Source: Naegleria gruberi | Taxonomy: Eukaryota | Assembly (NCBI GenBank): GCA_000004985.1 | Contig: GG738852.1 | Strand: one strand, 5' to 3' | DNA length: 64,000 bases | In this document: piece after piece, positions 23,979 to 54,795 of the stretch | Numbering within the stretch: position 1 is the stretch's first letter | Layout of the letters: every line of letters begins with the position of its first letter | The notes under the pieces: generated by a model | What the model saw: the letters and a program-made list of their open reading frames with translations, nothing else | Database searches by the model: none | Told to the model about the DNA's origin: nothing | Position numbers and translations under genes: made by a program

Positions 23979-24551
23979 TTACCAATAATTCTTATCATAA
24001 TTAGTTGAATTTGAAGGTCTATAAGTGGTTGATGATCTTGAATTTGATCTCATTTCAGATAAATTTTCATTTGTATACTCTGGTATTAATTCTGAAAAGT
24101 ACATTTGTTTATGAAGTCTATTAGTAAATTCTTGTGCTAAATCTTGAGCTTGTTGGTGAGTTAAATTTCTTTCCATTTCATATTCATTACCATTATCATC
24201 TAATCTTACAACTCTCCATATTGGTTTATCATGAATACTCTTTACTTTATCAGTATTATTAGTGTTAGTATTAATATTGGCATTATTATCAGTATTATTA
24301 GTATTATTATTAGTATTATTGATTTTAATATTATTATTATTGAATGTAGTAGTATTAGACTTTTCAAATAGATTAAATGATTGACTGAAATGATTTGAAT
24401 AGTTTGAATTCAATGTATATGGAATAATATAATTGTTTGTATTGATTCCTATAATACTACTACTACAATTATTACAATTATAAGGTGATAATGTAATATT
24501 ATGACTTGTTGATTGATACGATGATCGGATACGAAGTGTTTGTTTCAACAT
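23979..24551 (-). CDS. Hypothetical protein (Asn/Thr-rich N-terminal half, conserved-looking C-terminal ~80 aa)
   Basis: The 190-aa ORF ends 'KPIWRVVRLDDNGNEYEMERNLTHQQAQDLAQEFTNRLHKQMYFSELIPEYT'. No family recognised. Its codon usage resembles neighbouring genes. Confidence 0.35.
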   Translation of the reverse strand: MLKQTLRIRSSYQSTSHNITLSPYNCNNCSSSIIGINTNNYIIPYTLNSNYSNHFSQSFNLFEKSNTTTFNNNNIKINNTNNNTNNTDNNANINTNTNNTDKVKSIHDKPIWRVVRLDDNGNEYEMERNLTHQQAQDLAQEFTNRLHKQMYFSELIPEYTNENLSEMRSNSRSSTTYRPSNSTNYDKNYW

Positions 24552-24777
24552 TTTTTTAATATAATTATTTCTTCTTTAAATGAGATTGCTATTAATAGTT
24601 CTCAACTATGGATTCTTTCTAGTAGAATAGGTCAACTAATGCTAAAGAATCTAAAATTGATTGAAAGAAATCAATACCATTTGTAATTCTTTACAATTAA
24701 TTTAAATAGTATTTAATATTAACTATTATTAGAATAGATAACCGTTGGAGAGCAGGAAGATAATAAATTAAAAAAAA

Positions 24778-26583
24778 ATGCATCCACTATTATTTATTGC
24801 ACTTGTTTGTAAACAACATGTAATAACCTTCAATCATTCAATTTTATCGGAAATTAATTATCCTCACATACATTTATTAAATTGTCATCATACAACAAGT
24901 ATTGAAGATTTATTTTTATTCTTTGCATCTCCTACTTCTCAACAACAACAATTAAATAATTTAAATAATAATTTAAATAATAATAATACTATTAATACTA
25001 TTAATAGTAATAATAATATAAATTCAATTAAAACACCTGAATCAACATCAAATATTAAATCACCAACATCACCTCAAAGATTATCTTTAAATTATGATCA
25101 AATTAATTTAATTACAAATAATTTACAATTTAATTTATTTAATAATAATAATATAAATGAAAATGATGAAATTGGAAATAGAAATTCACTTGTAAAACAA
25201 CATAAAAGAAGTAGTAGTTTAGCAATTGATAATTTAATATTAAATAATAATATAAATGGAAATAATATAAATGGAAATATTAATTCATTACCTCAATCAT
25301 CTCTAATATTACAATCTAATAATAATTTAAATGAAATTAATCAACAACAATTAACAAATATGGAAAAAAGAAATAGTTTTAAACATAATAAAAATATTTT
25401 TAGTTTTGATGATAGATATCATCAAGTATTTAATGATACAAATAATTTAAATAATAATTTAAATAATACAAATAATAATAATAATAATAATTTAAATAAT
25501 ACTTCCATAAATAATAATAATACAAATATAGCAAATATTACTAATGTAAATCATTCATATCATCATAATGTACATTCATTAAATGATGGTAATTTGACAC
25601 CATCTACACCATTTAATCAATCTCAATTACATGTTCCATTTTCATTACAAAAAAGAACTTCCATTTTAAGTAAGAGACATTTTAAACATGTTTCAAATTC
25701 ACCAAATATAAATAATTCTAATTCTATTAATAATAATAATTCTAATAATATAAATGATAATATTTTTGATTTACAAGTTAAAACTAATGAAAGAAAATTT
25801 AGAATTTTAATTTTAAATAATTTTAGAAGTGTTTCTAAAAGAGTAAAATTTACTTTATTGGAAATATTTAAATATAAAAAAGTTATTTTAGGTGATAAAA
25901 TTATTGATATTCCATATGAATTTATTTGTATATGTGATACTTTAGAATTACCTTCTCCATTAGTATGTTTTTAATTTTAATTTTATTTTAATTTTAATAT
26001 ATTTAATTTAATATTTTAATATATATAATATTTAATATATTTAAAAAATAGTTAAATGAATTTATTGGATTTGTACCAACATTATGTGCTAATACAACAA
26101 TAACAATACAAGATATTCAAAATTATTCAACAAATATTCAACATATTATTCAACAACAATTGAATAGATTAAATGAACAAACAAATTTAATTGATTGTGT
26201 TGATATGACTGTTAAAATACAACAATATATTAGAGAAATTATTATACAATGTAGAAATCATCAATATATTAAAAAATATCCAACAAGTGAAGCTTTACCT
26301 TTTACTGTTATGGCATGCAAGTATGTTTTTTATTTATTTATTTAATATTTATTTAATATTTATTTAATATTATTTATTTAATTCATTGTTACAATAATTT
26401 ATAACAACAACTATTATTGAATGGTTTTAAAGAGCATACGCATTGATATATAACAAGACATTTGTAACACCTACTCATGTACAATCAATAATTTCAAATT
26501 TATTATTTCATAGAATTGAATGCATTTCAGATGATAAATGGAATGTAATTCAACAAGTAGTTTCAAATGTTTTACCACCTTGA
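24778..26583 (+). CDS. Hypothetical Asn-rich protein, 3 exons (24778..25962, 26052..26320, 26433..26583)
   Basis: Exon 1 ends '...ELPSPL' with a GTATGT donor at 25963. The acceptor ...aaaaaatag ends at 26051. Exon 2 reads 'LNEFIGFVPTLCANTTITIQDIQ...PFTVMAC' + AA (phase 2), with a GTATGT donor at 26321. The acceptor ttttaaag ends at 26432. Exon 3 reads 'KAYALIYNKTFVTPTHVQSIISNLLFHRIECISDDKWNVIQQVVSNVLPP', ending at the TGA at 26581-26583. This incorporates listed ORF 26160..26345. Family not recognised. Confidence 0.5.
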
Positions 26584-46752: not shown

Positions 46753-48597
46753 ATGAACTGTCTTTGCAATTTGAAAAAACATTTTTCCTTTAGACTGCTG
46801 TCAACAATCAACTTGTCAAAAAAAAATATCAAAATGCCTTCTGTTAAATTTCTTCTCGATCACCCAAAGTTTAGAAAAAGTGGATGGTTATACAAACAAG
46901 GAGGATCCTATCGTTCAGTTAAAAAACGTTTTGTTGTCCTCCTAGCCAATGAATTATTTTACTTTACAAAAGAAGATGATGAAGAACATAAAGGAAGTAT
47001 TGTAATCAGAGGACCTGTTAATAGAAGTTCTCTTTCTGTTGAAGTTAAAGGTTTAAATTTAAAGAATTGTATTGAAATTCCATCAGATAAAAGAACTTAC
47101 TTAATTTGGACTGATTCAGAATATTTAGCAGGAGAATGGACAGATGCATTAAATAATGCTTATAAGGAATTTTCATTAGGTCAATCATCTCATTCATCTA
47201 ATCATCATCATCATCAGGTAGCAGATGATTTATCAGATGGAGGTGATGAATTTTCTGAAGATAATGCTCCATCATTTGATGAAAATAATTCCACTACTAA
47301 AATATCAAGTAAGCAAATGATTGAAAGGAGTATTGATAAGAAGGATAAATTTGAGAATACTAATTATACATTTGAGAATAATTGTTGCGTTCATCCAACT
47401 TTAATTTCAAATATTCACATTGTTGAACCGTTACAAACTTTGAATAGTTCAAATGCATCCATTTCAAGCATTTCTAAATATTTGGTTACTAAAAAGAGAC
47501 AATTTGGAAACAAACTAACACTTGAAAATGCACTAGCACTTTCTAAAACTGGTGATTCTATTGTTTTAAGACCAGGTAAACATTACATTCCATCAACCTT
47601 AATTGTCAATCAATCAATTTATTTAATTGGAGAATCAGACAAACAAAACAAGTGTGAAGTGATCATTTTACAAGATTCCTCAACAACAAGTCAATATTTA
47701 CCATGTATTTGTTTCAATGCTCCATTTACCTATTGTAAAAATATTGATTTTGTTCACTTTTCAGATTTGAATGTGAATAATAATCTCATTAATAATTCTA
47801 CAGATATTTCTGCAACAAGTGCTGGAGTTTCACAATCCAATATTGCAAAAGGTAGAATTGAAGCTTCAGATAGTATTCTCTCGCCAAATGTATGTCAATT
47901 TCTAACTGGTCAGACAGTCATGTTAAATTGTACCTTCCAAGTGATGAGTGTCAGAGATAATGATAATGGTAATGTAGATCCAAATTCTCTATTCGATTGT
48001 TGTTGGGTCACTGGTTCAAAGACATGTGTACAATTTAGGAAGTGTAATTTTTTGGGAGGGAAGAATGGACTCGTCGGTTCTATTAATTCCAATATTTTAG
48101 TGGAAAATAATTGTCAATTTAAAGATCAATTGAATCATTCTATTACTCTATCTCAACATTCTAAATTGGAATGTAAAAATAGTAATTCAATTTATGGAAA
48201 TATTTGTTTACTACATCAATCAAGTGCTGAAATATCCTCAAGTCATATTTATTCTCAATCCATAACTATTCTTGATGATTCATCTTTAAATATGCATCAT
48301 AATACTTTATATTTACAAAATTTGAAATTTATTACATTTAATCATCAACAACAAACACAAAAGAACAAATTAATTCATAATACTTTCAAGATTGAATCTT
48401 CTAATATAGATGCACCATGTAAAATATCAATGTTAAATAATTCATGTCCAATTATTGATGATAATCAATTTGAAACAAAATGTAATGATTTATCTCTTAT
48501 TTACATTTTCCAAAATAAGAATAATATGAAAAATATGTTGATGAATACTTCAACTAGTAATACATCTATTCTGGTAGTCTCTGACTATTTGAATTAA
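46753..48597 (+). CDS. PH-domain protein with a C-terminal Cys-rich parallel beta-helix-like (PbH1-repeat-like) region
   Basis: An N-terminal PH domain is present ('FRKSGWLYKQGGSYRSVKKRFVVLLANELFYFTKEDDEEHKGSIVIRG...WTDALNNAY'). The likely true start is 'MPSVKFLLDHPKF' at ~46834. The C-terminal half has repeated motifs of the '...N..F.......G.....N' type ('NCTFQVMSVRDNDNG', 'FRKCNFLGGKNGLVGSINSNILVENNCQF'). These are typical of right-handed beta-helix repeats. Confidence 0.55.
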   Translation: MNCLCNLKKHFSFRLLSTINLSKKNIKMPSVKFLLDHPKFRKSGWLYKQGGSYRSVKKRFVVLLANELFYFTKEDDEEHKGSIVIRGPVNRSSLSVEVKGLNLKNCIEIPSDKRTYLIWTDSEYLAGEWTDALNNAYKEFSLGQSSHSSNHHHHQVADDLSDGGDEFSEDNAPSFDENNSTTKISSKQMIERSIDKKDKFENTNYTFENNCCVHPTLISNIHIVEPLQTLNSSNASISSISKYLVTKKRQFGNKLTLENALALSKTGDSIVLRPGKHYIPSTLIVNQSIYLIGESDKQNKCEVIILQDSSTTSQYLPCICFNAPFTYCKNIDFVHFSDLNVNNNLINNSTDISATSAGVSQSNIAKGRIEASDSILSPNVCQFLTGQTVMLNCTFQVMSVRDNDNGNVDPNSLFDCCWVTGSKTCVQFRKCNFLGGKNGLVGSINSNILVENNCQFKDQLNHSITLSQHSKLECKNSNSIYGNICLLHQSSAEISSSHIYSQSITILDDSSLNMHHNTLYLQNLKFITFNHQQQTQKNKLIHNTFKIESSNIDAPCKISMLNNSCPIIDDNQFETKCNDLSLIYIFQNKNNMKNMLMNTSTSNTSILVVSDYLN

Positions 48598-49057
48598 ACA
48601 TGGCAAATACTGATCCAATTACTGGAATGTTACTTAAATATGAAATAATAGTTGGAATAAAATTAAAGAATAAAACATAATATCCATATAATTCAAATAA
48701 CGTTCCAATAATGGCATGACCATAAATTACAATTAAAAAACCAATAAAGAAACAAATAGTTCCTTTCAATCTGTTTTTAGATAATATAAAAGAATTAATA
48801 CTAGGTCTAATTCCTATCAATAGTACAATTCCAAATACAAAGGAGATATTTCCAATAGCAATAAAGCCTCTATCAAAGAATAACAAAACTCCCAAAAGAT
48901 TTGCCAAAACACCAATTAATACCAATCCGATACCAATTTTCTGAAAATCAGATAAATTAAATGGATTGATCGAAGTTGTAGTATCGCTATTATAGCTTGA
49001 GCGATTGTTATTATTGTTACCGTTACCACTGTATGAACGGAATGATGAAGAGAACAT
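48566..49057 (-). CDS. GOT1: Golgi transport protein 1 (GOT1/GOLT1) homologue with an N-terminal Asn/Ser-rich extension
   Basis: Four TM helices match the GOT1 pattern: 'FQKIGIGLVLIGVLANLLGVLLFFDRGFIAIGNISFVFGIVLLIG...KGTICFFIGFLIVIYGHAIIGTLFELYGYYVLFFNFIPTIISYLSNIPVIGSVF'. From memory, human GOLT1B reads '[39 protein letters not shown]...IGWPLIGMIFEIYGFFLLFRGFFPVVVGFIRRVPVLGS'. Its 3' end overlaps the PH-domain gene by ~30 bp (convergent). Confidence 0.7.
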   Translation of the reverse strand: MFSSSFRSYSGNGNNNNNRSSYNSDTTTSINPFNLSDFQKIGIGLVLIGVLANLLGVLLFFDRGFIAIGNISFVFGIVLLIGIRPSINSFILSKNRLKGTICFFIGFLIVIYGHAIIGTLFELYGYYVLFFNFIPTIISYLSNIPVIGSVFAMFNSNSQRLPE

Positions 49058-49291
49058 TTTTTTAAAATATTTAATAAAAATTTAAAAAAATTAATGAAAA
49101 CACTGTTTGACGCACAATTGCCACGATTTTATCAGCAATTGTATCAGGTTCTGGATGATGTAATATTCACCTTGTAAATAGAACAAGGTGATTTTTTTGT
49201 TGATCGCCCGTGTTCTTTGTTCGTAGGACCGTGGGTATGTTAAAATTTTCATAGTAGATGTCTGTAGATCAGTAAGTTGTTCTCTATGTAA

Positions 49292-49363
49292 GGGACCATG
49301 GTCTAGTGGTATGATTCTCGCTTTGGGTGCGAGAGGCCGTGGGTTCGATTCCCACTGGTCCCC
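49292..49363 (+). tRNA. tRNA-Pro (anticodon UGG)
   Basis: GGGACCATGGTCTAGTGGTATGATTCTCGCTTTGGGTGCGAGAGGCCGTGGGTTCGATTCCCACTGGTCCCC. A 7-bp acceptor stem (GGGACCA/TGGTCCC), a D-arm containing GGTCTAGTGGTA, and the anticodon loop cTTTGGGt (anticodon TGG). The T-arm is GTGGGTTCGATTCCCAC and the discriminator is C. It is near-identical in the anticodon arm to other eukaryotic tRNA-Pro genes. It has no intron. Confidence 0.9.
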
Positions 49364-49914
49364 TTTCCTTTTATATCTTTGCCAACTTAATATTTATTTT
49401 GACCTCGATAAACATAAAATTATGAAGAAGATGAAAGAAACCCTAAGTCAAATTATACTCAGAGAATCAACATTGAAACCTCCTCCATAATGCAATCAGG
49501 AGGAAGCAGTGGTTAATCTCTATCAAGAAACATTATTGTAAGCACGAGATATTTTACACAGAACCTTATTTACAGTTAATTTTTCAACGAGTGGCTTTCA
49601 TTGTTCCAATCTTTCTTTTAAAGTTCCTTAATCATCTTCATCACTGCCTCACACACCTAGCAAGCAATCAACTCATTTTGCTATCAAAGCCTGCTTCAGA
49701 TGAGCAAAGGAACTTGTCCCCCTCAAATAGAAACACGATGTCGTTGTTGAACAAGTGCGTCAAGTAAATTCAGTGTTGCGGGTTTTCAAGATTTCTTTTT
49801 AAAAAAATTGCTCCAACTCTCGCAGAAGCATCATTGTAAATTAAAAGGGTGTTGTTTTTTGTATTGACCGAATAATTATCATCATAGTAATAATACAACA
49901 CACATATAACAAAG

Positions 49915-51981
49915 ATGATTAGATATTTTAAAGTAGTTTTGAGTGATTTTAAATGTACTGGATTACCTCCTGCAGATAGAAATGGTCTGTCAGACCCATA
50001 TATCAAGGGTAACTTTGATAACTTTCGTACTTTTAAATCACCAACAAAGAAAAAGACATTGAATCCGCAGTGGGACGGTTTTACAGTTGAATTTGACTAT
50101 CACACAAAATACGGATCTAAACTTCACTTGAAGAAGCTCTTGTTGGATGTTTATGATCACGATGTGCTCGGAAAGGATAACTTTTTGGGTTGTTGTGCCT
50201 TGGATTTATTCTCTCTTGCTTGTGGACCTACAAAACAAATAATTACCCTTCGTTCTCAACTCAATGCTAAGGATAATAACGGTACAATAGAATTTAATTG
50301 TGTGATGGAGGAAGTAACCAAGTCATTCATGATTTGTTTATCGAATGTAAAGGTTAATTTTAATCCTCCTTTGGAAGAACCTAAAAATTTGAGGTGTATT
50401 GTATTAGCAGAGGATATCAATGCTCCAGAGACTAATACATTAACCTGTAGAGCAGTACAATCAGAAGCTGTTTGGTCACAATTTGCCAATTTGGAACTTA
50501 AAAATGTTTCTCTCAAAACCATCTTGGATGACAGAATCATTATTAAGATTAAACAAGAAAAGACTGGTATTGACCCAACTATTGCTCGTATTAATATTGA
50601 TTTGTCAAAGATTTTAGATAAATTTTTGGATGAAAATAGAACCATGTCAGCTGGAGATGGTCTCACTGAAGATATGCTTCCAGTAAAGATTACTGGTCTC
50701 AAAGTTGAATATAAGAATGCAGACAATATGTCATTCAAGAAATCTCCAAAGAAATCAGGTGGATTTGGTCTTAAGAGTTCAACTCAGGAATATGATGATG
50801 AATTGTTAGGAAATCCTAGTAACAGTATCAAGACTGCTTTTGATAGATCTTTAGGTGTTGCTGAATTGGAAATTGGATTTATTGGTATTCCAATGTATGC
50901 CCAAATGGTTAGTGGTTCTGCTAAGGATAAGATTGTAACTGGTACTCCCCTTCTTGAAAACTTGCCAGTGCCTTCTGGTTTTGTTCCATCTGCCAATAGA
51001 GATGAAAAGAGAAAGCTTTCATCTTCTCCAACTAGTACAACTAGTACAGAGAATGGAAGTGGATCAAGAAGAGCTTCAGTTGCTCTCGAACCTCAAACTT
51101 TACCAACAACTGCAGGTCTACCATACGGTTGGGAAAAGAAGGTTGATAAGAGAACAAATAAGGAATACTATGTTGATCACAATACAAGAACTACTCATTG
51201 GCATTTCCCAACCAGTGATTCAAAGTCTCAATTGGATGAAGAAGAACACTCTGAAATGGAAGAAGTTGAAATGTCTATCAAACCAGTCCAACAAGAAAGA
51301 CGTCAATCTGTACAAAGTGGTAATTCTCAAGTTTATCAAATCCCTGTATCCCCAAGCCAAAAGCAAACATATCAAACTGTACCTCAAAATGTAGTACCAC
51401 AAGTAATGCCACAACAAACTTATCCTCAAAACTATCCACAACAATCTCCACAATCACCACAAAACTATCCTCAAAATCAACCATACATTCCTCAAAATGT
51501 TCCACAACAACAAGCTTATCAAACCATGCCTCAAGTCATGCCACAACAACCTTCCTTACCAACAACACCTGGTTTACCATATGGTTGGGAAGAAAGAGTA
51601 GATCCTGGTTCTGGTCGTGCTTATTATTTAAATCATACTACTAAGAGCACTCAATGGGAAAGACCAGGTCAACCAACAGTTAATAATACTCAACAATCTC
51701 TTATTCAAGGTTTCAATAATCTTCGTGTCTCCCCACAAAACCCACAAACCTACCAAACAAATCCACAAGCTTATCAAACAAGTCCACAACAACAACAACA
51801 AGCCTATCCAACCATGTCTCAATATCCGACAAATCCTCAACCACAAACTTACCAAACCATGCCTCAACAGAAACAACCACTTCCAAATGGTTGGGAAGAG
51901 AGAGTTGATCCAAGCTCTGGTCGTTCTTACTATCTTAACCATTTTACAAAGACAACACAATGGGATAGACCAACTTATTAA
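49915..51981 (+). CDS. C2-domain protein with three WW domains and Pro/Gln-rich linkers (NEDD4-like N-terminal architecture without a HECT domain)
   Basis: An N-terminal C2 domain is present ('GLPPADRNGLSDPYIKGNFDNFRTFKSPTKKKTLNPQWDGFTVEF...LLLDVYDHDVLGKDNFLGCCALDL'). Three WW domains are present: 'LPYGWEKKVDKRTNKEYYVDHNTRTTHWHFP', 'LPYGWEERVDPGSGRAYYLNHTTKSTQWERP', and 'LPNGWEERVDPSSGRSYYLNHFTKTTQWDRP'. The ORF ends at a TAA right after the third WW domain. The next gene, on the opposite strand, starts 44 bp later. Confidence 0.8.
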   Translation: MIRYFKVVLSDFKCTGLPPADRNGLSDPYIKGNFDNFRTFKSPTKKKTLNPQWDGFTVEFDYHTKYGSKLHLKKLLLDVYDHDVLGKDNFLGCCALDLFSLACGPTKQIITLRSQLNAKDNNGTIEFNCVMEEVTKSFMICLSNVKVNFNPPLEEPKNLRCIVLAEDINAPETNTLTCRAVQSEAVWSQFANLELKNVSLKTILDDRIIIKIKQEKTGIDPTIARINIDLSKILDKFLDENRTMSAGDGLTEDMLPVKITGLKVEYKNADNMSFKKSPKKSGGFGLKSSTQEYDDELLGNPSNSIKTAFDRSLGVAELEIGFIGIPMYAQMVSGSAKDKIVTGTPLLENLPVPSGFVPSANRDEKRKLSSSPTSTTSTENGSGSRRASVALEPQTLPTTAGLPYGWEKKVDKRTNKEYYVDHNTRTTHWHFPTSDSKSQLDEEEHSEMEEVEMSIKPVQQERRQSVQSGNSQVYQIPVSPSQKQTYQTVPQNVVPQVMPQQTYPQNYPQQSPQSPQNYPQNQPYIPQNVPQQQAYQTMPQVMPQQPSLPTTPGLPYGWEERVDPGSGRAYYLNHTTKSTQWERPGQPTVNNTQQSLIQGFNNLRVSPQNPQTYQTNPQAYQTSPQQQQQAYPTMSQYPTNPQPQTYQTMPQQKQPLPNGWEERVDPSSGRSYYLNHFTKTTQWDRPTY

Positions 51982-52025
51982 ATACCACCAATAAAATCTA
52001 TTGTTAATAATATTATTTGAAGAGT

Positions 52026-53150
52026 TTATTCTAAAGGTGAAATTGGACTAGTGACATAAACTAAAAAGTCACAATCTTTCAAACTTCCAGAACAGTAAGT
52101 TGCTGCAAAGTAAGCACCTTTTGGAGTTGGAGGAGAAAATGATAAATTGTTCTTTGAAATTTCAAATCCATAAATGAAATGAGATCTGACAGCATCTAAA
52201 AGTTTAGAAGCAACACCACCTCTTCTGTGTTCTTCCTTAACCCAAATTCTATTTACACCACAATAAACATTTACACTCCTCTTATCATCCCATGAAAGAA
52301 TTGATTTCTTGTCATCATATGCTGAATCAATACTTGTAGTTGACAAGATGACATCCAAATTATTTGATGGACAATTTTCATCTTCCACAAATGAATTAGA
52401 AAGAGTACTTTCATTCAAATCCTTCTTTTCCACAAATGAAGGATGAGCTTTACTAACTCTCTCTACAACTACACAACCCATAATTTCATCATTTTCTGTA
52501 TTAATATATAAAAACATGGTATGAGTAGATATTGAAAATGGTAATGTACATTGAAGTGAACTTGTATCAATAAATTCAACAATTTGTTCTGCCTTCTTAT
52601 GAAGAGCCTTAGGTGATTGAGCATTAATTACAATAATCTTATTTGGATAATCATCTTCCTTCACATTATCCTAATATTATAATATAATATCATAATAATG
52701 AATCAATCAATAAAGATCAATACTATTCAAATCATTGTAAAAACATACTTTTGATGTAACTTTGTATTTCATCAACTTTTTAAAAGATTGACAAAATTTG
52801 TTATGAACCTTTTCATCTTGAAAATCACCATTCATATAAACCATACCACATGATTTACAACGATTACTGGTAAAACTCTTCTGTCCACAATCCATTACTA
52901 ATTGTTCATACTTTTTCATCTTTTTAGGTTTACTAATTTTGGAGGAGGAAGGTGCAGAGAGTATTTCATGGAGAGGATCAGTGCACTTTGGTGCAGCACT
53001 CTTGGAGATGGTAAGCTTCTTACCTGTACCAAACGAAAGAGTAGCTTGTTTCATATTGAGAGAAGCAGCAGTTGTTGCTTTTTTTTTAATTTGAAAATGT
53101 AACGGATAGAAATTTGGATCCACCAAAACTGTCATCAAACGCCTTGCCAA
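52026..53150 (-). CDS. ECO1: N-acetyltransferase ESCO/Eco1 (establishment of sister-chromatid cohesion); 2 exons (53150..52748, 52670..52026)
   Basis: Exon 1 has a PIP-like 'QATLSFG' and an Eco1-type C2H2 zinc finger ('RCKSCGMVYMNGDFQDEKVHNKFC'). It ends '...YKVTSK' with a GTATGT donor at 52747. The acceptor ...taatattag is at 52672/52671. Exon 2 begins 'DNVKEDDYPNK...'. The GNAT acetyltransferase core is 'NRIWVKEEHRRGGVASKLLDAVRSHFIYGFEISKNNLSFSPPTPKGAYFAATYCG'. From memory, human ESCO2 reads 'RIWV...FIYG...FSDPTPDG..FA..YCG'. Confidence 0.75.
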
Positions 53151-53310
53151 TATTTATGTGGTATTGATAATAAAACTTATTCATCGGAACCAATCAAATC
53201 AAATTCCATTATTTTCATCCTTCATATATGAATTTAATATAGCTTGTTTTAATTTTACTTGAAATGTTAGCTCCATCAAATCAAGCCTTCATTCAAATTG
53301 TTCAATTTCT

Positions 53311-54795
53311 TTGATGAAATTAAAAACAAAGCTTGGAAGAAAAATTTCCAGCAGTACGATAAAAAAAATGAAGTCACAATCAGCAGCACAAAAATTGAAA
53401 GCCAAAATCAACAAGGCTAAAGAAGAGAAGAGCAACAAGCAACAAGAACAACAAGAAAAACCTGCTATTGTTGCTCCTCCTAAAAAATCAACACCACCTG
53501 TTGTTGAAAAGGCTAAACAACAAGCTAAAAAATCAAAGCAAGAAAGTCCCGAACAAGATGTAAAGGTTGCTAAAACTCTTGTTGAAAATAATACAAATGA
53601 TAGCCCAATTCGTGAAGTAATGTTTGAAGTTTGTACAGGTTCATATGATTCTAGATTTGTCGGATTTTGTTATAGATATTTTACTAGTAATGATCCAAAA
53701 TTCGAAACAGTACTTGAATTACCACAAGCACAATTAATTAAATTCTCTGAACAACAAAAATTGAAGGAACAACCATTAATTACAACAACATTCGCAACAA
53801 AACCACACGCAGGAAGTATCAATCAATTATTATCAACAAAGAAATATGTTATTACAACAGGTTATGATGAATTGGCTTTAGTTTATGATTTAGTTACAAG
53901 AAGAGAATTGAGATCTATACCTTTACAACAAGGAAATATTCTTGATGTTGGATCATTGAAGGATCAATATACAGCTTTTGCTACTGCTAATGGTGTCATT
54001 TCTTTACACGCAGGAGCTAAATATTCATTCACACCAATTTGGGAAAAGGTAGCTCATAAGGGACCAGTTGCTAGTATTGCAATTCATCCTTCTGGTCGTT
54101 TACTTCTTTCAGTTGGTCAAAATGATAACAAATTGAGAGTGTGGGATATGATTAAGGGTAGTTTAGCTTATACAGTCAACTTGGGTAAACACAGTGCTGA
54201 AAGAGTTAGATTTTCATCAGCAGGTAATCATTTCTTTATTCATTACAGAGAAAAGGTTGTTATACATGATACTGAATCATTAGAAGTTATTTATACACTT
54301 GCTCACGAATCAAATGTTACATATTCAATTTATGTCGGTAATGATTATGTTGCCACTGGTACACAAGATGGTAAAATCACTATATGGGATTTGGAAAATG
54401 GTGAATGTTTACAAGTTTTGGATTTGCACGAAACTAGAATCAAATCTTTGGATGTTAAGGAAGTTAACGTTGGTGAATATTGTCTTTGTGCTGTTTCATC
54501 TGATGGTGGTTTATCATTGTGGCGTTTATATTTGTTGGATGAAGAAGTTCCTCCTGCTTTATTATTCTATGAAGTATTTAATGTAAGATTGACAAGTTGT
54601 TGTTTGTGGACTCACTTTGCTTCTGAACATCAACAATTTATGAAAGAACGTAAACTTGCCTTACAAAAGAAACTTGGAGTTGAAGGTGACATGCAAGAAG
54701 ATGAGATGATTGAAGATTCAGATTCAGATGATGATTATGAATATGTTATGGAAGGAGGTGAAGAAGAAGGTGATGAAATGCAAGATGATGAATAA
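53311..54795 (+). CDS. WD-repeat protein PAK1IP1/MAK11-like (60S ribosome-biogenesis factor) with a Lys-rich N-terminus and an acidic C-terminus
   Basis: WD repeats include 'ITTGYDELALVYDLVTRRELRSI', 'HPSGRLLLSVGQNDNKLRVWDMIKGSLAY', 'ATGTQDGKITIWDLENGECLQVL' and 'AVSSDGGLSLWRL'. The segment 'YEVFNVRLTSCCLW' is also present. From memory, these parallel human PAK1IP1 ('GSKDETIHIYDMKKKIEHGAL', 'HPSGKLALSVGTDKTLRTWNLVEGRSAF', 'SSDGFIKMWKL', 'CEINTNARLTCLGVW'). Confidence 0.7.
   Translation: MMKLKTKLGRKISSSTIKKMKSQSAAQKLKAKINKAKEEKSNKQQEQQEKPAIVAPPKKSTPPVVEKAKQQAKKSKQESPEQDVKVAKTLVENNTNDSPIREVMFEVCTGSYDSRFVGFCYRYFTSNDPKFETVLELPQAQLIKFSEQQKLKEQPLITTTFATKPHAGSINQLLSTKKYVITTGYDELALVYDLVTRRELRSIPLQQGNILDVGSLKDQYTAFATANGVISLHAGAKYSFTPIWEKVAHKGPVASIAIHPSGRLLLSVGQNDNKLRVWDMIKGSLAYTVNLGKHSAERVRFSSAGNHFFIHYREKVVIHDTESLEVIYTLAHESNVTYSIYVGNDYVATGTQDGKITIWDLENGECLQVLDLHETRIKSLDVKEVNVGEYCLCAVSSDGGLSLWRLYLLDEEVPPALLFYEVFNVRLTSCCLWTHFASEHQQFMKERKLALQKKLGVEGDMQEDEMIEDSDSDDDYEYVMEGGEEEGDEMQDDE

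What the first reader, a model, noticed from the sequence alone, without database searches (positions are those of the whole stretch)
49915..51981. C2 + three WW domains with no HECT domain: a 'headless' NEDD4-like protein
The N-terminal two-thirds of the NEDD4/Rsp5 ubiquitin-ligase architecture is encoded as a complete gene (C2, then 3 WW domains with Pro/Gln/Tyr-rich linkers). The ORF terminates at a TAA directly after WW3. The next gene, on the other strand, starts 44 bp downstream, so there is no room for a HECT exon. It could be a natural decoy or adaptor that competes for PY-motif substrates. It could also be a gene-fission product whose HECT half lies elsewhere. The linkers themselves are rich in 'PQNYPQ'-type motifs, so self-interaction is conceivable.
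Basis: seen in the sequence. Interest (0 to 1): 0.5.

Follow-up and report, generated by a model that had tools for sequence, protein, structure and literature searches.

The report
Tandem-C2 plus WW scaffold protein
This Naegleria gruberi gene really does encode a C2-plus-three-WW protein with no ubiquitin-ligase domain, but it is not a beheaded NEDD4: it belongs to an old, widespread family of double-C2/WW proteins in which no detected member has a HECT domain, so it is a modestly interesting, already annotated gene rather than an anomaly.

Summary
ORF 49915-51981 (+) encodes a complete 688-aa protein with an N-terminal C2, three WW domains and no HECT. It is identical to an annotated Naegleria gruberi protein. 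Two full-length relatives (N. lovaniensis and a Naegleria-like metagenome contig) stop at the same point, with another gene 54-60 bp downstream.

The "headless NEDD4 / gene fission" reading is not supported. The region between C2 and WW1 is a second, divergent C2 (hhalign 95.8%), followed by a conserved xPx[YF]AQM..G motif. A confident AlphaFold model (pLDDT 84) matches tandem-C2 proteins such as ferlins, E-Syt, copine and synaptotagmin.

This tandem-C2 module defines a family found in Discoba, Metamonada, Amoebozoa, Alveolata, Breviatea and early fungi, with 0-4 WW domains. None of the best 150 representatives has a HECT. Published surveys place C2-WW-HECT ligases only in Opisthokonta and Apusozoa. 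C2A is closer to synaptotagmin and ferlin C2s than to NEDD4 C2s.

Most likely function (inferred): a non-catalytic scaffold that binds membranes and recruits PPxY proteins through class-I WW domains, like Dictyostelium DwwA or KIBRA. The linkers contain no canonical PY motif.

Interest is moderate to low.

The parts
49915..51981 (+). Complete single-exon CDS (688 aa plus TAA) of the Naegleria gruberi tandem-C2/WW protein
   Evidence: ORF list. 100% identity and coverage to deposited protein P0001. The start (MIR[YF]FK) and end (TTQW[DE]RPxY*) are conserved in the full-length relatives P0002 and P0003.
49915..50313 (+). C2A (aa 1-133): canonical C2 domain. Asp at 21, 27, 81 and 83 align with synaptotagmin-type Ca2+ ligands. 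The fifth position is Asn89, which is Asp in most other family members.
50314..50889 (+). C2B (aa 134-325): divergent second C2 beta-sandwich without the acidic Ca2+ cluster
   Evidence: No Pfam hit. hhalign of the C2A profile against the C2B profile gives probability 95.8%, E 6.6e-9. The AF2 model is all-beta with pLDDT about 80-93 outside the insert. Foldseek matches tandem-C2 proteins over about 290-490 alignment columns.
50713..50844 (+). Naegleria-specific disordered insert in C2B (aa ~267-310; basic, Ser-rich 'SFKKSPKKSGGFGLKSS')
   Evidence: Absent from non-heterolobosean family members in alignment A3. pLDDT below 50 at 270-309. 34-49% identity within the genus.
50890..50988 (+). Family signature motif xPx[YF]AQMxxG...G...G..LL (aa 326-358; P326 and G334 invariant), predicted to be ordered
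   Evidence: Alignment A3. Motif table across 43 detected members. pLDDT about 90 with two short strands.
51118..51210 (+). WW1 (aa 402-432), class-I type
   Evidence: Pfam WW. tblastn. Fits the pattern Y-x-[LIVF]-x-H-x4-[TS]-x-W. 84% identical to N. lovaniensis WW1.
51211..51573 (+). Linker 1 (aa 433-553): a conserved acidic patch SQLDEEEHSEMEEVEM (nt 51226-51273) followed by a Q/P-rich low-complexity stretch
   Evidence: Composition Q29 P19 of 119 residues. The acidic patch is conserved in the three full-length Naegleria-type sequences. The rest is 44-51% identical with many indels.
51574..51666 (+). WW2 (aa 554-584), class-I type
51667..51879 (+). Linker 2 (aa 585-655): Q/P/T/Y-rich, with a conserved island LxQxFNN[LM]x[IV]S (nt 51700-51732)
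51880..51972 (+). WW3 (aa 656-686), class-I type, two residues before the stop codon
   Evidence: A WW domain at the extreme C-terminus is also seen in family members P0023, P0031, P0051, P0089 and P0113.
52026..53150 (-). Convergent neighbour: an ESCO/Eco1-type acetyltransferase in two exons. It is not part of the feature but sets its 3' boundary.
   Evidence: Pfam zf-C2H2_3 and Acetyltransf_13. The same convergent pairing, 60 bp apart, occurs in N. lovaniensis.

Best explanation
The gene encodes a non-catalytic scaffold. Its anatomy is C2A (canonical, probably Ca2+/phospholipid-binding), then C2B (divergent), then an ordered xPx[YF]AQM motif, then disordered Q/P-rich linkers carrying three class-I WW domains.

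It belongs to an ancient family that has this tandem-C2 module plus a variable WW tail. No detected member has a HECT domain. The family is spread across eukaryotic supergroups, so the gene is not derived from a NEDD4/Rsp5 ligase.

Proposed mechanism: the tandem C2 docks the protein on a membrane or the cell cortex, possibly in response to Ca2+. The three flexibly tethered WW domains then capture proteins that carry [LP]PxY motifs and concentrate them there. This would parallel Dictyostelium DwwA and animal KIBRA/WWC.

Shown here: the domain anatomy, the completeness of the gene, its conservation, the family distribution and the absence of HECT. Inferred: membrane binding, Ca2+ dependence, PPxY ligands and the cellular role.
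For: Gene and domains.

The HECT-less end is conserved at three loci. Both full-length relatives end ...TTQW(D/E)RPxY*. In N. lovaniensis the convergent ESCO gene lies 60 bp downstream. On contig L002 an unrelated DUF4116 gene lies 54 bp downstream.

Purifying selection acts on the domains: 65-86% identity for C2A, the motif and the WW domains, 49-62% for the C2B core, against 29-52% with indels in the linkers.

The second domain is a C2: hhalign 95.8%, E 6.6e-9. The AF2 model has pLDDT 84.4 and pTM 0.77. Foldseek's top hits are myoferlin, dysferlin, E-Syt2 C2A-C2B, the copine BON1 and Syt1/3/7 C2AB, with E 5e-10 to 1e-7.

Family: an exhaustive phmmer search with aa 1-400 finds proteins matching through C2B or the motif. 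Named members come from Willaertia, Andalucia, Papus and Apiculatamorpha (Discoba); Anaeramoeba (Metamonada); Cavostelium, Physarum, Ceratiomyxa and dictyostelids (Amoebozoa); Vitrella, Digyalum and Platyproteum (Alveolata); Lenisia (Breviatea); and Allomyces, Blastocladiella and Amoeboradix (Fungi). They carry 0-4 WW domains, and none of the best 150 has a HECT.

The WW domains fit the class-I determinant pattern in 3 of 3 cases, as do 28 of 29 Nedd4-type WW domains.

Literature: the Nedd4-like C2-WW-HECT group is confined to Opisthokonta plus Apusozoa (PMC3673628; PMC2770060). DwwA is a C2/WW protein that binds calmodulin and is needed for the final scission step of cytokinesis (PMC7072818 and PMC7079120).
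Against: No experiment or expression data were available for this gene. Membrane binding, Ca2+ dependence and PPxY binding rest only on domain-level analogy.

The fifth canonical Ca2+ ligand is Asn in Naegleria.

I could not scan the Naegleria proteome for PPxY partners or for HECT proteins. The absence of a Nedd4-type ligase in Naegleria rests on published surveys and on the lack of any Naegleria WW-HECT hit, a word-filtered search that cannot prove absence.

The homology to DwwA itself could not be tested because its sequence was not retrievable. The link rests on a source annotation of the Andalucia member and on shared architecture.

Inter-domain geometry comes from a prediction built on only 14 sequences.
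Confidence: 0.6

Rival explanations
1. Headless NEDD4: a Nedd4/Rsp5-type ligase that lost its HECT domain or was split, with the HECT half encoded elsewhere. The product would act as a decoy competing with a full-length ligase.
For: The order C2 then WW x3 resembles Nedd4. The best non-family hits of the full-length protein are C2-WW-HECT ligases (E 7e-23 and weaker). The WW domains are 53-57% (median) identical to Nedd4-type WW domains.
Against: The N-terminus is a tandem C2 plus a motif shared with a family in which none of the best 150 representatives, from six major lineages, has a HECT. Published surveys find no Nedd4-like group outside Opisthokonta and Apusozoa. C2A scores 71 bits to Syt1 C2A but 47 bits to NEDD4L C2 and only 46.6 bits to the C2 of the best C2-WW-HECT hit. 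WW identity to Nedd4 WW domains is no higher than to the WW domains of other family members. The stop after WW3 is conserved at three loci.
Confidence: 0.05
2. Ancestral donor or sister: this HECT-less C2-WW family predates Nedd4 ligases, and its C2-WW cassette (or that of a close relative) was fused to a HECT domain in the ancestor of Opisthokonta and Apusozoa. The Naegleria protein would then preserve the pre-ligase state.
For: The family is present both outside and inside the group that contains Opisthokonta, Apusozoa and Breviatea (Lenisia and early fungi). It has the same C2-to-WW order. Its WW domains are class I and up to 67-70% identical to Nedd4 WW domains. Nedd4-type ligases are the best non-family full-length hits.
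Against: Nedd4 ligases have a single C2 and lack C2B and the AQM motif. C2A is not specifically Nedd4-like. WW domains of about 30 aa carry too little signal to decide. No phylogeny was done.
Confidence: 0.12
3. Annotation or assembly artefact: the gene is truncated, and a HECT exon is missing because of a mis-assembly or an unrecognised intron.
For: Only the abstract possibility. One related model (P0004, 442 aa) is clearly mis-predicted at its 3' end.
Against: Three independent assemblies give the same C-terminus with a stop two residues after WW3 and a different gene within 44-60 bp. There is no HECT-like coding potential in 64 kb. Distant family members also end right after their last WW.
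Confidence: 0.02
4. Self-regulated module: the WW domains bind in cis to the protein's own P/Q/Y-rich linkers or to the xPxYAQM motif (autoinhibition or condensate formation), not mainly to other proteins.
For: The linkers contain PQNY, PQTY and PQAY. The motif reads IPMY in N. gruberi and LPxY in some members.
Against: No [LP]PxY motif occurs in the N. gruberi protein. The linker repeats are not conserved among Naegleria species. The Tyr of the AQM motif is replaced by F, M, L, V, T or S in many members, and WW-less members keep the motif. The motif is predicted to be ordered and packed (pLDDT about 90), which fits a structural role.
Confidence: 0.08

Closest known systems
[quoted passage not shown]
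   Same: A non-catalytic protein that combines a C2 domain, WW domains and a proline-rich region, with no HECT. Reviews describe it as a scaffold needed for the final scission step of cytokinesis. A family member from Andalucia godoyi carries this name in its source annotation, and dictyostelids have clear family members.
   Different: DwwA is described with two WW domains and an IQ-like calmodulin-binding motif (IQRTFRNHKKQSY). That motif is absent from every sequence fetched here, and N. gruberi has only a weak, non-conserved [FILV]Qxxx[RK] match.
Nedd4/Rsp5 family of HECT ubiquitin ligases (C2-WW(2-4)-HECT)
   Same: An N-terminal C2 followed by several class-I WW domains separated by disordered linkers. 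PPxY recognition is the likely shared binding mode.
   Different: There is no HECT domain and hence no ligase activity. The protein has a tandem C2 plus the AQM motif where Nedd4 has one C2. C2A is not specifically related to Nedd4 C2s. The host lineage lies outside the known range of the Nedd4 group.
KIBRA/WWC proteins (UniRef's automatic name for this protein is 'Protein kibra')
   Same: Non-catalytic scaffolds that combine WW domains with a lipid-binding C2.
   Different: From general knowledge, KIBRA has two WW domains at the N-terminus, coiled coils and an internal single C2. Here the order is reversed (tandem C2 first, three WW domains last) and there is no coiled coil. The name is therefore misleading.
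Tandem-C2 membrane proteins (extended synaptotagmins, synaptotagmins, copines/BON1, ferlins)
   Same: The N-terminal 358 aa are best matched, by fold and by sequence profile, to C2A-C2B pairs of these proteins.
   Different: Those proteins couple the C2 pair to transmembrane, SMP or vWA modules, not to WW domains. The AQM motif is specific to this family.
HECT-less isoforms of animal Nedd4-family genes (e.g. WWP2-N; recalled from memory, not checked here)
   Same: C2-plus-WW products without catalytic activity that modulate PY-dependent interactions.
   Different: Those are splice isoforms of ligase genes and act on the full-length ligase. Here the HECT-less state is the only, and the ancestral, state of a separate gene family.

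Membership tests
Nedd4/Rsp5 HECT E3 ligases | C-terminal HECT catalytic domain | tested here: not met
   Pfam finds no HECT. tblastn with a HECT domain finds nothing in the 64-kb window. The stop two residues after WW3 is conserved in both full-length relatives.
Nedd4/Rsp5 HECT E3 ligases | Single N-terminal C2 of the Nedd4 type | tested here: not met
   [not shown]
Nedd4/Rsp5 HECT E3 ligases | Two to four class-I (PPxY-type) WW domains | tested here: met
   There are three WW domains, and all fit Y-x-[LIVF]-x-H-x4-[TS]-x-W, as do 28 of 29 Nedd4-type WW domains. Ligand binding itself was not tested.
KIBRA/WWC | N-terminal WW pair followed by coiled coil and an internal C2 | tested here: not met
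   The domain order is C2A-C2B-WW-WW-WW. No helical or coiled-coil region is predicted in aa 1-358, and the remainder is WW domains plus low-complexity linkers.
DwwA-like C2/WW scaffolds (Dictyostelium) | C2 plus WW domains, Pro-rich region, no catalytic domain | tested here: met
   The DwwA description is taken from PMC7072818 and PMC7915506.
DwwA-like C2/WW scaffolds (Dictyostelium) | IQ / IQ-like calmodulin-binding motif | tested here: inconclusive
   The only match is a weak [FILV]Qxxx[RK] (VQQERR at aa 458). N. lovaniensis has LQPVKR nearby, and P0003 has none.
DwwA-like C2/WW scaffolds (Dictyostelium) | Sequence homology to D. discoideum DwwA over the C2 region and beyond | not testable with these tools
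   The DwwA sequence was not retrievable. The original paper is not held. The search seeded with the Heterostelium member returned four other dictyostelid proteins but not D. discoideum.
Tandem-C2 + AQM-motif + WW family (delineated here; no Pfam model) | C2A followed directly by a divergent C2B | tested here: met
Tandem-C2 + AQM-motif + WW family (delineated here; no Pfam model) | Conserved xPx[YF][AGS]QM..G motif after C2B | tested here: met
   IPMYAQMVSG at aa 325-334. P326 and G334 are invariant in alignment A3.
Tandem-C2 + AQM-motif + WW family (delineated here; no Pfam model) | Disordered P/Q-rich tail carrying 0-4 WW domains, often ending at the last WW, with no HECT | tested here: met

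The most novel reading that the evidence does not exclude
The tandem-C2/WW family could be a scaffold as old as the last common ancestor of eukaryotes. It would then represent the WW-PPxY membrane-sorting system before HECT ligases were attached to it.

On this reading, the family or a close relative donated the C2-WW cassette that became Nedd4/Rsp5 in the ancestor of Opisthokonta and Apusozoa.

The family's tail may also toggle between 'reader' (WW) and 'ligand' (PPxY) states. One named fungal member (Allomyces), from a lineage with Rsp5, and two unnamed metagenome members carry PPxY tails and no WW. Members from lineages without Nedd4-type ligases carry WW domains.
Probability: 0.12. Interest if true: 0.6.

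Novelty: new member of a known kind. Interest (0 to 1): 0.33.

Why it matters
The practical result is a correction. A C2-WW protein in a protist should not be read as a degenerate NEDD4, or as KIBRA, which is how automatic pipelines name it.

The analysis also shows that a WW/PPxY recognition module attached to a membrane-binding tandem C2 exists in many lineages that have no Nedd4-type ligase. This bears on how PY-motif networks worked before Nedd4/Rsp5 arose.

The analysis defines a conserved, unmodelled region (C2B plus the AQM motif) that could be turned into a family profile. If DwwA proves to be a member, a cytokinesis and cortex role becomes a testable prediction for Naegleria, including the pathogen N. 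fowleri.

Tried and rejected
1. AlphaFold on aa 1-395 with only the four Naegleria-type sequences gave an unusable model (pLDDT 44). It was replaced by a run with the 14-member family alignment.
2. The fold search against afdb50 was unavailable.
3. An exact-sequence look-up of the window protein in the contig index found nothing. The loci of the two full-length relatives were used instead.
4. The profile search of the named database with A3 returned only 9 proteins because of the word filter. The taxonomy therefore came from cluster look-ups.
5. The DwwA link was tried several ways. The original paper is not held by PMC id or DOI. A proteomics supplement holds no sequence. The search seeded with Heterostelium P0159 did not return D. 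discoideum. The published IQ motif is absent from all 188 fetched proteins. The link therefore remains indirect.
6. No supplementary files are held for the HECT survey, so N. gruberi HECT architectures could not be listed.
7. I considered and rejected self-binding of the WW domains to the linkers, because there is no [LP]PxY motif.
8. I considered and rejected the AQM motif as a conserved LPxY ligand. Its Tyr is not conserved, WW-less members keep the motif, and it is predicted to be ordered.
9. WW-domain identities do not discriminate between Nedd4 and family affinity, so they were not used as evidence either way.
Full report
**1. What is there**

The window is AT-rich eukaryotic DNA of about 30% G+C. 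ORF 49915-51981 (+) encodes 688 aa.

- Pfam finds one C2 (aa 12-100, E 2.3e-16) and three WW domains (summed E 6.8e-40). It finds no HECT.
- The WW domains map to nt 51118-51210, 51574-51666 and 51880-51972.
- A TAA follows two codons after WW3.
- Forty-four bp further on lies the stop-codon end of a convergent gene, an ESCO/Eco1-type acetyltransferase in two exons.
- A Nedd4-type HECT query finds nothing in the 64 kb (best E 1.2).

The product is 100% identical over its full length to 'C2 domain-containing protein [Naegleria gruberi]', which UniRef auto-names 'Protein kibra'.

**2. The gene model is sound**

Full-length relatives from N. lovaniensis (P0002, 645 aa) and a Naegleria-like metagenome contig (P0003, 705 aa) begin MIR[YF]FK and end ...TTQW[DE]RPxY*, as the window gene does.

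- In N. lovaniensis the same convergent ESCO gene follows after 60 bp.
- On the third contig an unrelated DUF4116 gene follows after 54 bp.
- Folded parts are conserved and linkers are not: C2A 85-86% identity, WW domains 65-84%, linkers 29-52% with many indels.

This is a real, constrained, HECT-less gene. It is not a truncation.

**3.

Residues 134-358 are conserved in the genus but have no Pfam match.

An exhaustive phmmer search with aa 1-400 gave 1545 hits. Most were C2-only, but one set matched through about residue 230, or residue 351 in one case. Aligning 14 of these (A3) shows a shared module. It consists of C2A, a second beta-rich domain, and an invariant-Pro/Gly motif xPx[YF]AQMxxG...G...G.

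- A profile of the second domain aligns to the C2A profile with hhalign probability 95.8%, E 6.6e-9.
- With A3 as input, AlphaFold gives a confident two-domain model (pLDDT 84.4, pTM 0.77). The motif segment is ordered, at about 90, and only a Naegleria-specific insert (aa ~270-309) is disordered.
- Foldseek's best PDB matches are multi- or tandem-C2 proteins: myoferlin, dysferlin, otoferlin, E-Syt2 C2A-C2B, the copine BON1 and synaptotagmin C2AB.
- At the sequence-profile level, Syt1 C2A scores 71 bits and NEDD4L C2 scores 47 bits.
- The C2 of the best C2-WW-HECT hit gives only 46.6 bits.

The N-terminus is therefore a tandem C2 and is not specifically Nedd4-like.

**4. It belongs to a broad family with no HECT in any detected member**

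Local HMMs built here for HECT, WW and the C2B-plus-motif module were run over all fetched proteins.

- None of the best 150 representatives from the exhaustive search has a HECT.
- Fifteen of them have WW domains.
- Forty-three of all fetched sequences (including Naegleria sequences and cluster members) carry the C2B/motif module at E < 1e-10.

Pfam confirms architectures such as C2+4 WW (P0023, P0042), C2+zf-HIT+2 WW (P0089), C2+1 WW (P0031, P0048), and C2 plus a P/Q-rich tail without WW (P0034, P0046, P0065). Several members end right after their last WW, as the Naegleria protein does.

Named members come from the following groups (taxonomy checked):

| Lineage | Organisms |
|---|---|
| Discoba | Willaertia magna, Andalucia godoyi, Papus, Apiculatamorpha |
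| Metamonada | Anaeramoeba flamelloides, Anaeramoeba ignava |
| Amoebozoa | Cavostelium, Physarum, Ceratiomyxa, Heterostelium, Acytostelium, Cavenderia, Tieghemostelium |
| Alveolata | Vitrella, Digyalum, Platyproteum |
| Breviatea | Lenisia |
| Early-branching Fungi | Allomyces, Blastocladiella, Amoeboradix |

This spread argues for great age.

**5. Comparison with NEDD4**

Grau-Bové et al. 2013 place all C2-WW-HECT families in Opisthokonta plus Apusozoa. They infer one ancestral homologue in that common ancestor and describe Excavata, with N. gruberi sampled, as HECT-poor (PMC3673628). Gazave et al. 2009, which also sampled N. gruberi, date NEDD4/Su(dx) to the opisthokont ancestor (PMC2770060).

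This has two consequences:
- There is probably no resident NEDD4 for a 'decoy' to compete with.
- HECT loss or fission would have to be assumed in lineage after lineage, in a family where no HECT was detected in any member.

The WW domains are ordinary class-I WW domains. Their identity to Nedd4-type WW domains (median 53-57%) is about the same as to the WW domains of other family members (47-53%), so they do not decide ancestry.

'Headless NEDD4', 'fission' and 'decoy' do not.

**6. Likely mechanism (inferred)**

C2A keeps Asp21, Asp27, Asp81 and Asp83. From my memory of synaptotagmin-1 C2A, these align with four of its five Ca2+ ligands. The fifth position is Asn89 in Naegleria and Asp in most other members. 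C2B lacks the acidic cluster (alignment).

I therefore expect the tandem C2 to bind membrane or cortex, possibly in a Ca2+-sensitive way. I expect the three flexibly tethered WW domains to capture [LP]PxY proteins.

The protein itself has no [LP]PxY motif. The AQM motif is not a conserved PY ligand, because its Tyr varies and WW-less members keep it. Self-binding is therefore unlikely.

The closest characterised analogue is Dictyostelium DwwA. It is a C2/WW/Pro-rich scaffold that binds calmodulin and is required for the final scission step of cytokinesis. The Andalucia family member is annotated with that name. I could not obtain the DwwA sequence to test homology.

**7. Verdict**

- The gene is a new member of a known kind, the non-catalytic C2+WW scaffolds. 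It belongs to a widespread family whose C2B-plus-motif region no Pfam model covers, and I found no description of the family in the paper searches I ran.
- Interest is moderate to low for this locus. It would be higher only if the family proves to be the pre-ligase source of the Nedd4 C2-WW cassette, which I put at about 0.12.

Noticed in passing
window 52026-53150 (-): The convergent neighbour is an ESCO/Eco1-type cohesin acetyltransferase split into two ORFs: zf-C2H2_3 in 52707-53150 and Acetyltransf_13 in 52026-52664. This implies a short intron near 52665-52706. The C2-WW/ESCO convergent pair is conserved in N. lovaniensis (L001 6001-7991 and 8051-9202).
   Followed up: partly
window 46753-54795 compared with L001 1-13991: Around the conserved C2-WW/ESCO pair the flanks are rearranged between species. 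In N. gruberi the PH-domain gene (46753-48597 +) and a Got1/Sft2 gene (48566-49057 -) lie upstream, and the WD40 gene (53311-54795 +) lies downstream. In N. lovaniensis the WD40 gene is upstream and the PH gene is downstream, both on the minus strand.
   Followed up: no
window 51226-51273 and 51700-51732: Two short islands inside the otherwise fast-evolving linkers are conserved in all three full-length Naegleria-type sequences. One is an acidic patch just after WW1 (SQLDEEEHSEMEEVEM). The other is LxQxFNN[LM]x[IV]S between WW2 and WW3. They are candidate short linear motifs of unknown partner.
   Followed up: no
family members P0065, P0109, P0156 compared with the WW-bearing members: Among the detected family members, those with WW domains have no [LP]PxY motif in their tails. 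Three WW-less members, including Allomyces macrogynus AMAG_00356, carry PPxY motifs in the tail. The numbers are too small for statistics, but this suggests the tail may switch between WW 'reader' and PY 'ligand'.
   Followed up: partly
P0159, P0187, P0188, P0126, P0048 C-termini: Amoebozoan family members end in a His/Cys-rich tag: CHGHHHCH in three dictyostelids, HGHGHHHHH in Ceratiomyxa and GHHC in Cavostelium. P0046, P0065 and P0156 share a different C-terminal motif, GFVPPFP[RK]P(T)K. Neither has a known function.
   Followed up: no
database names of P0001/P0002, P0113 cluster, P0183, P0078: Automatic names for this family are inconsistent and misleading. UniRef uses 'Protein kibra'. JGI uses 'uncharacterized protein YbdZ (MbtH family)' and, for a 237-aa fragment, 'E3 ubiquitin-protein ligase NEDD4'. 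Anaeramoeba members are named 'tricalbin-1-related'.
   Followed up: no
P0004 (442 aa, ENA): This related gene model stops after WW1 with an unrelated tail (VSLYYQFSW). It is probably a mis-predicted 3' end, from a missed intron or a frameshift, not a genuinely shorter protein.
   Followed up: no
window 24001-26000: G+C drops to 19.6% here, against about 26-36% elsewhere in the window.
   Followed up: no
[not shown]
   Followed up: no
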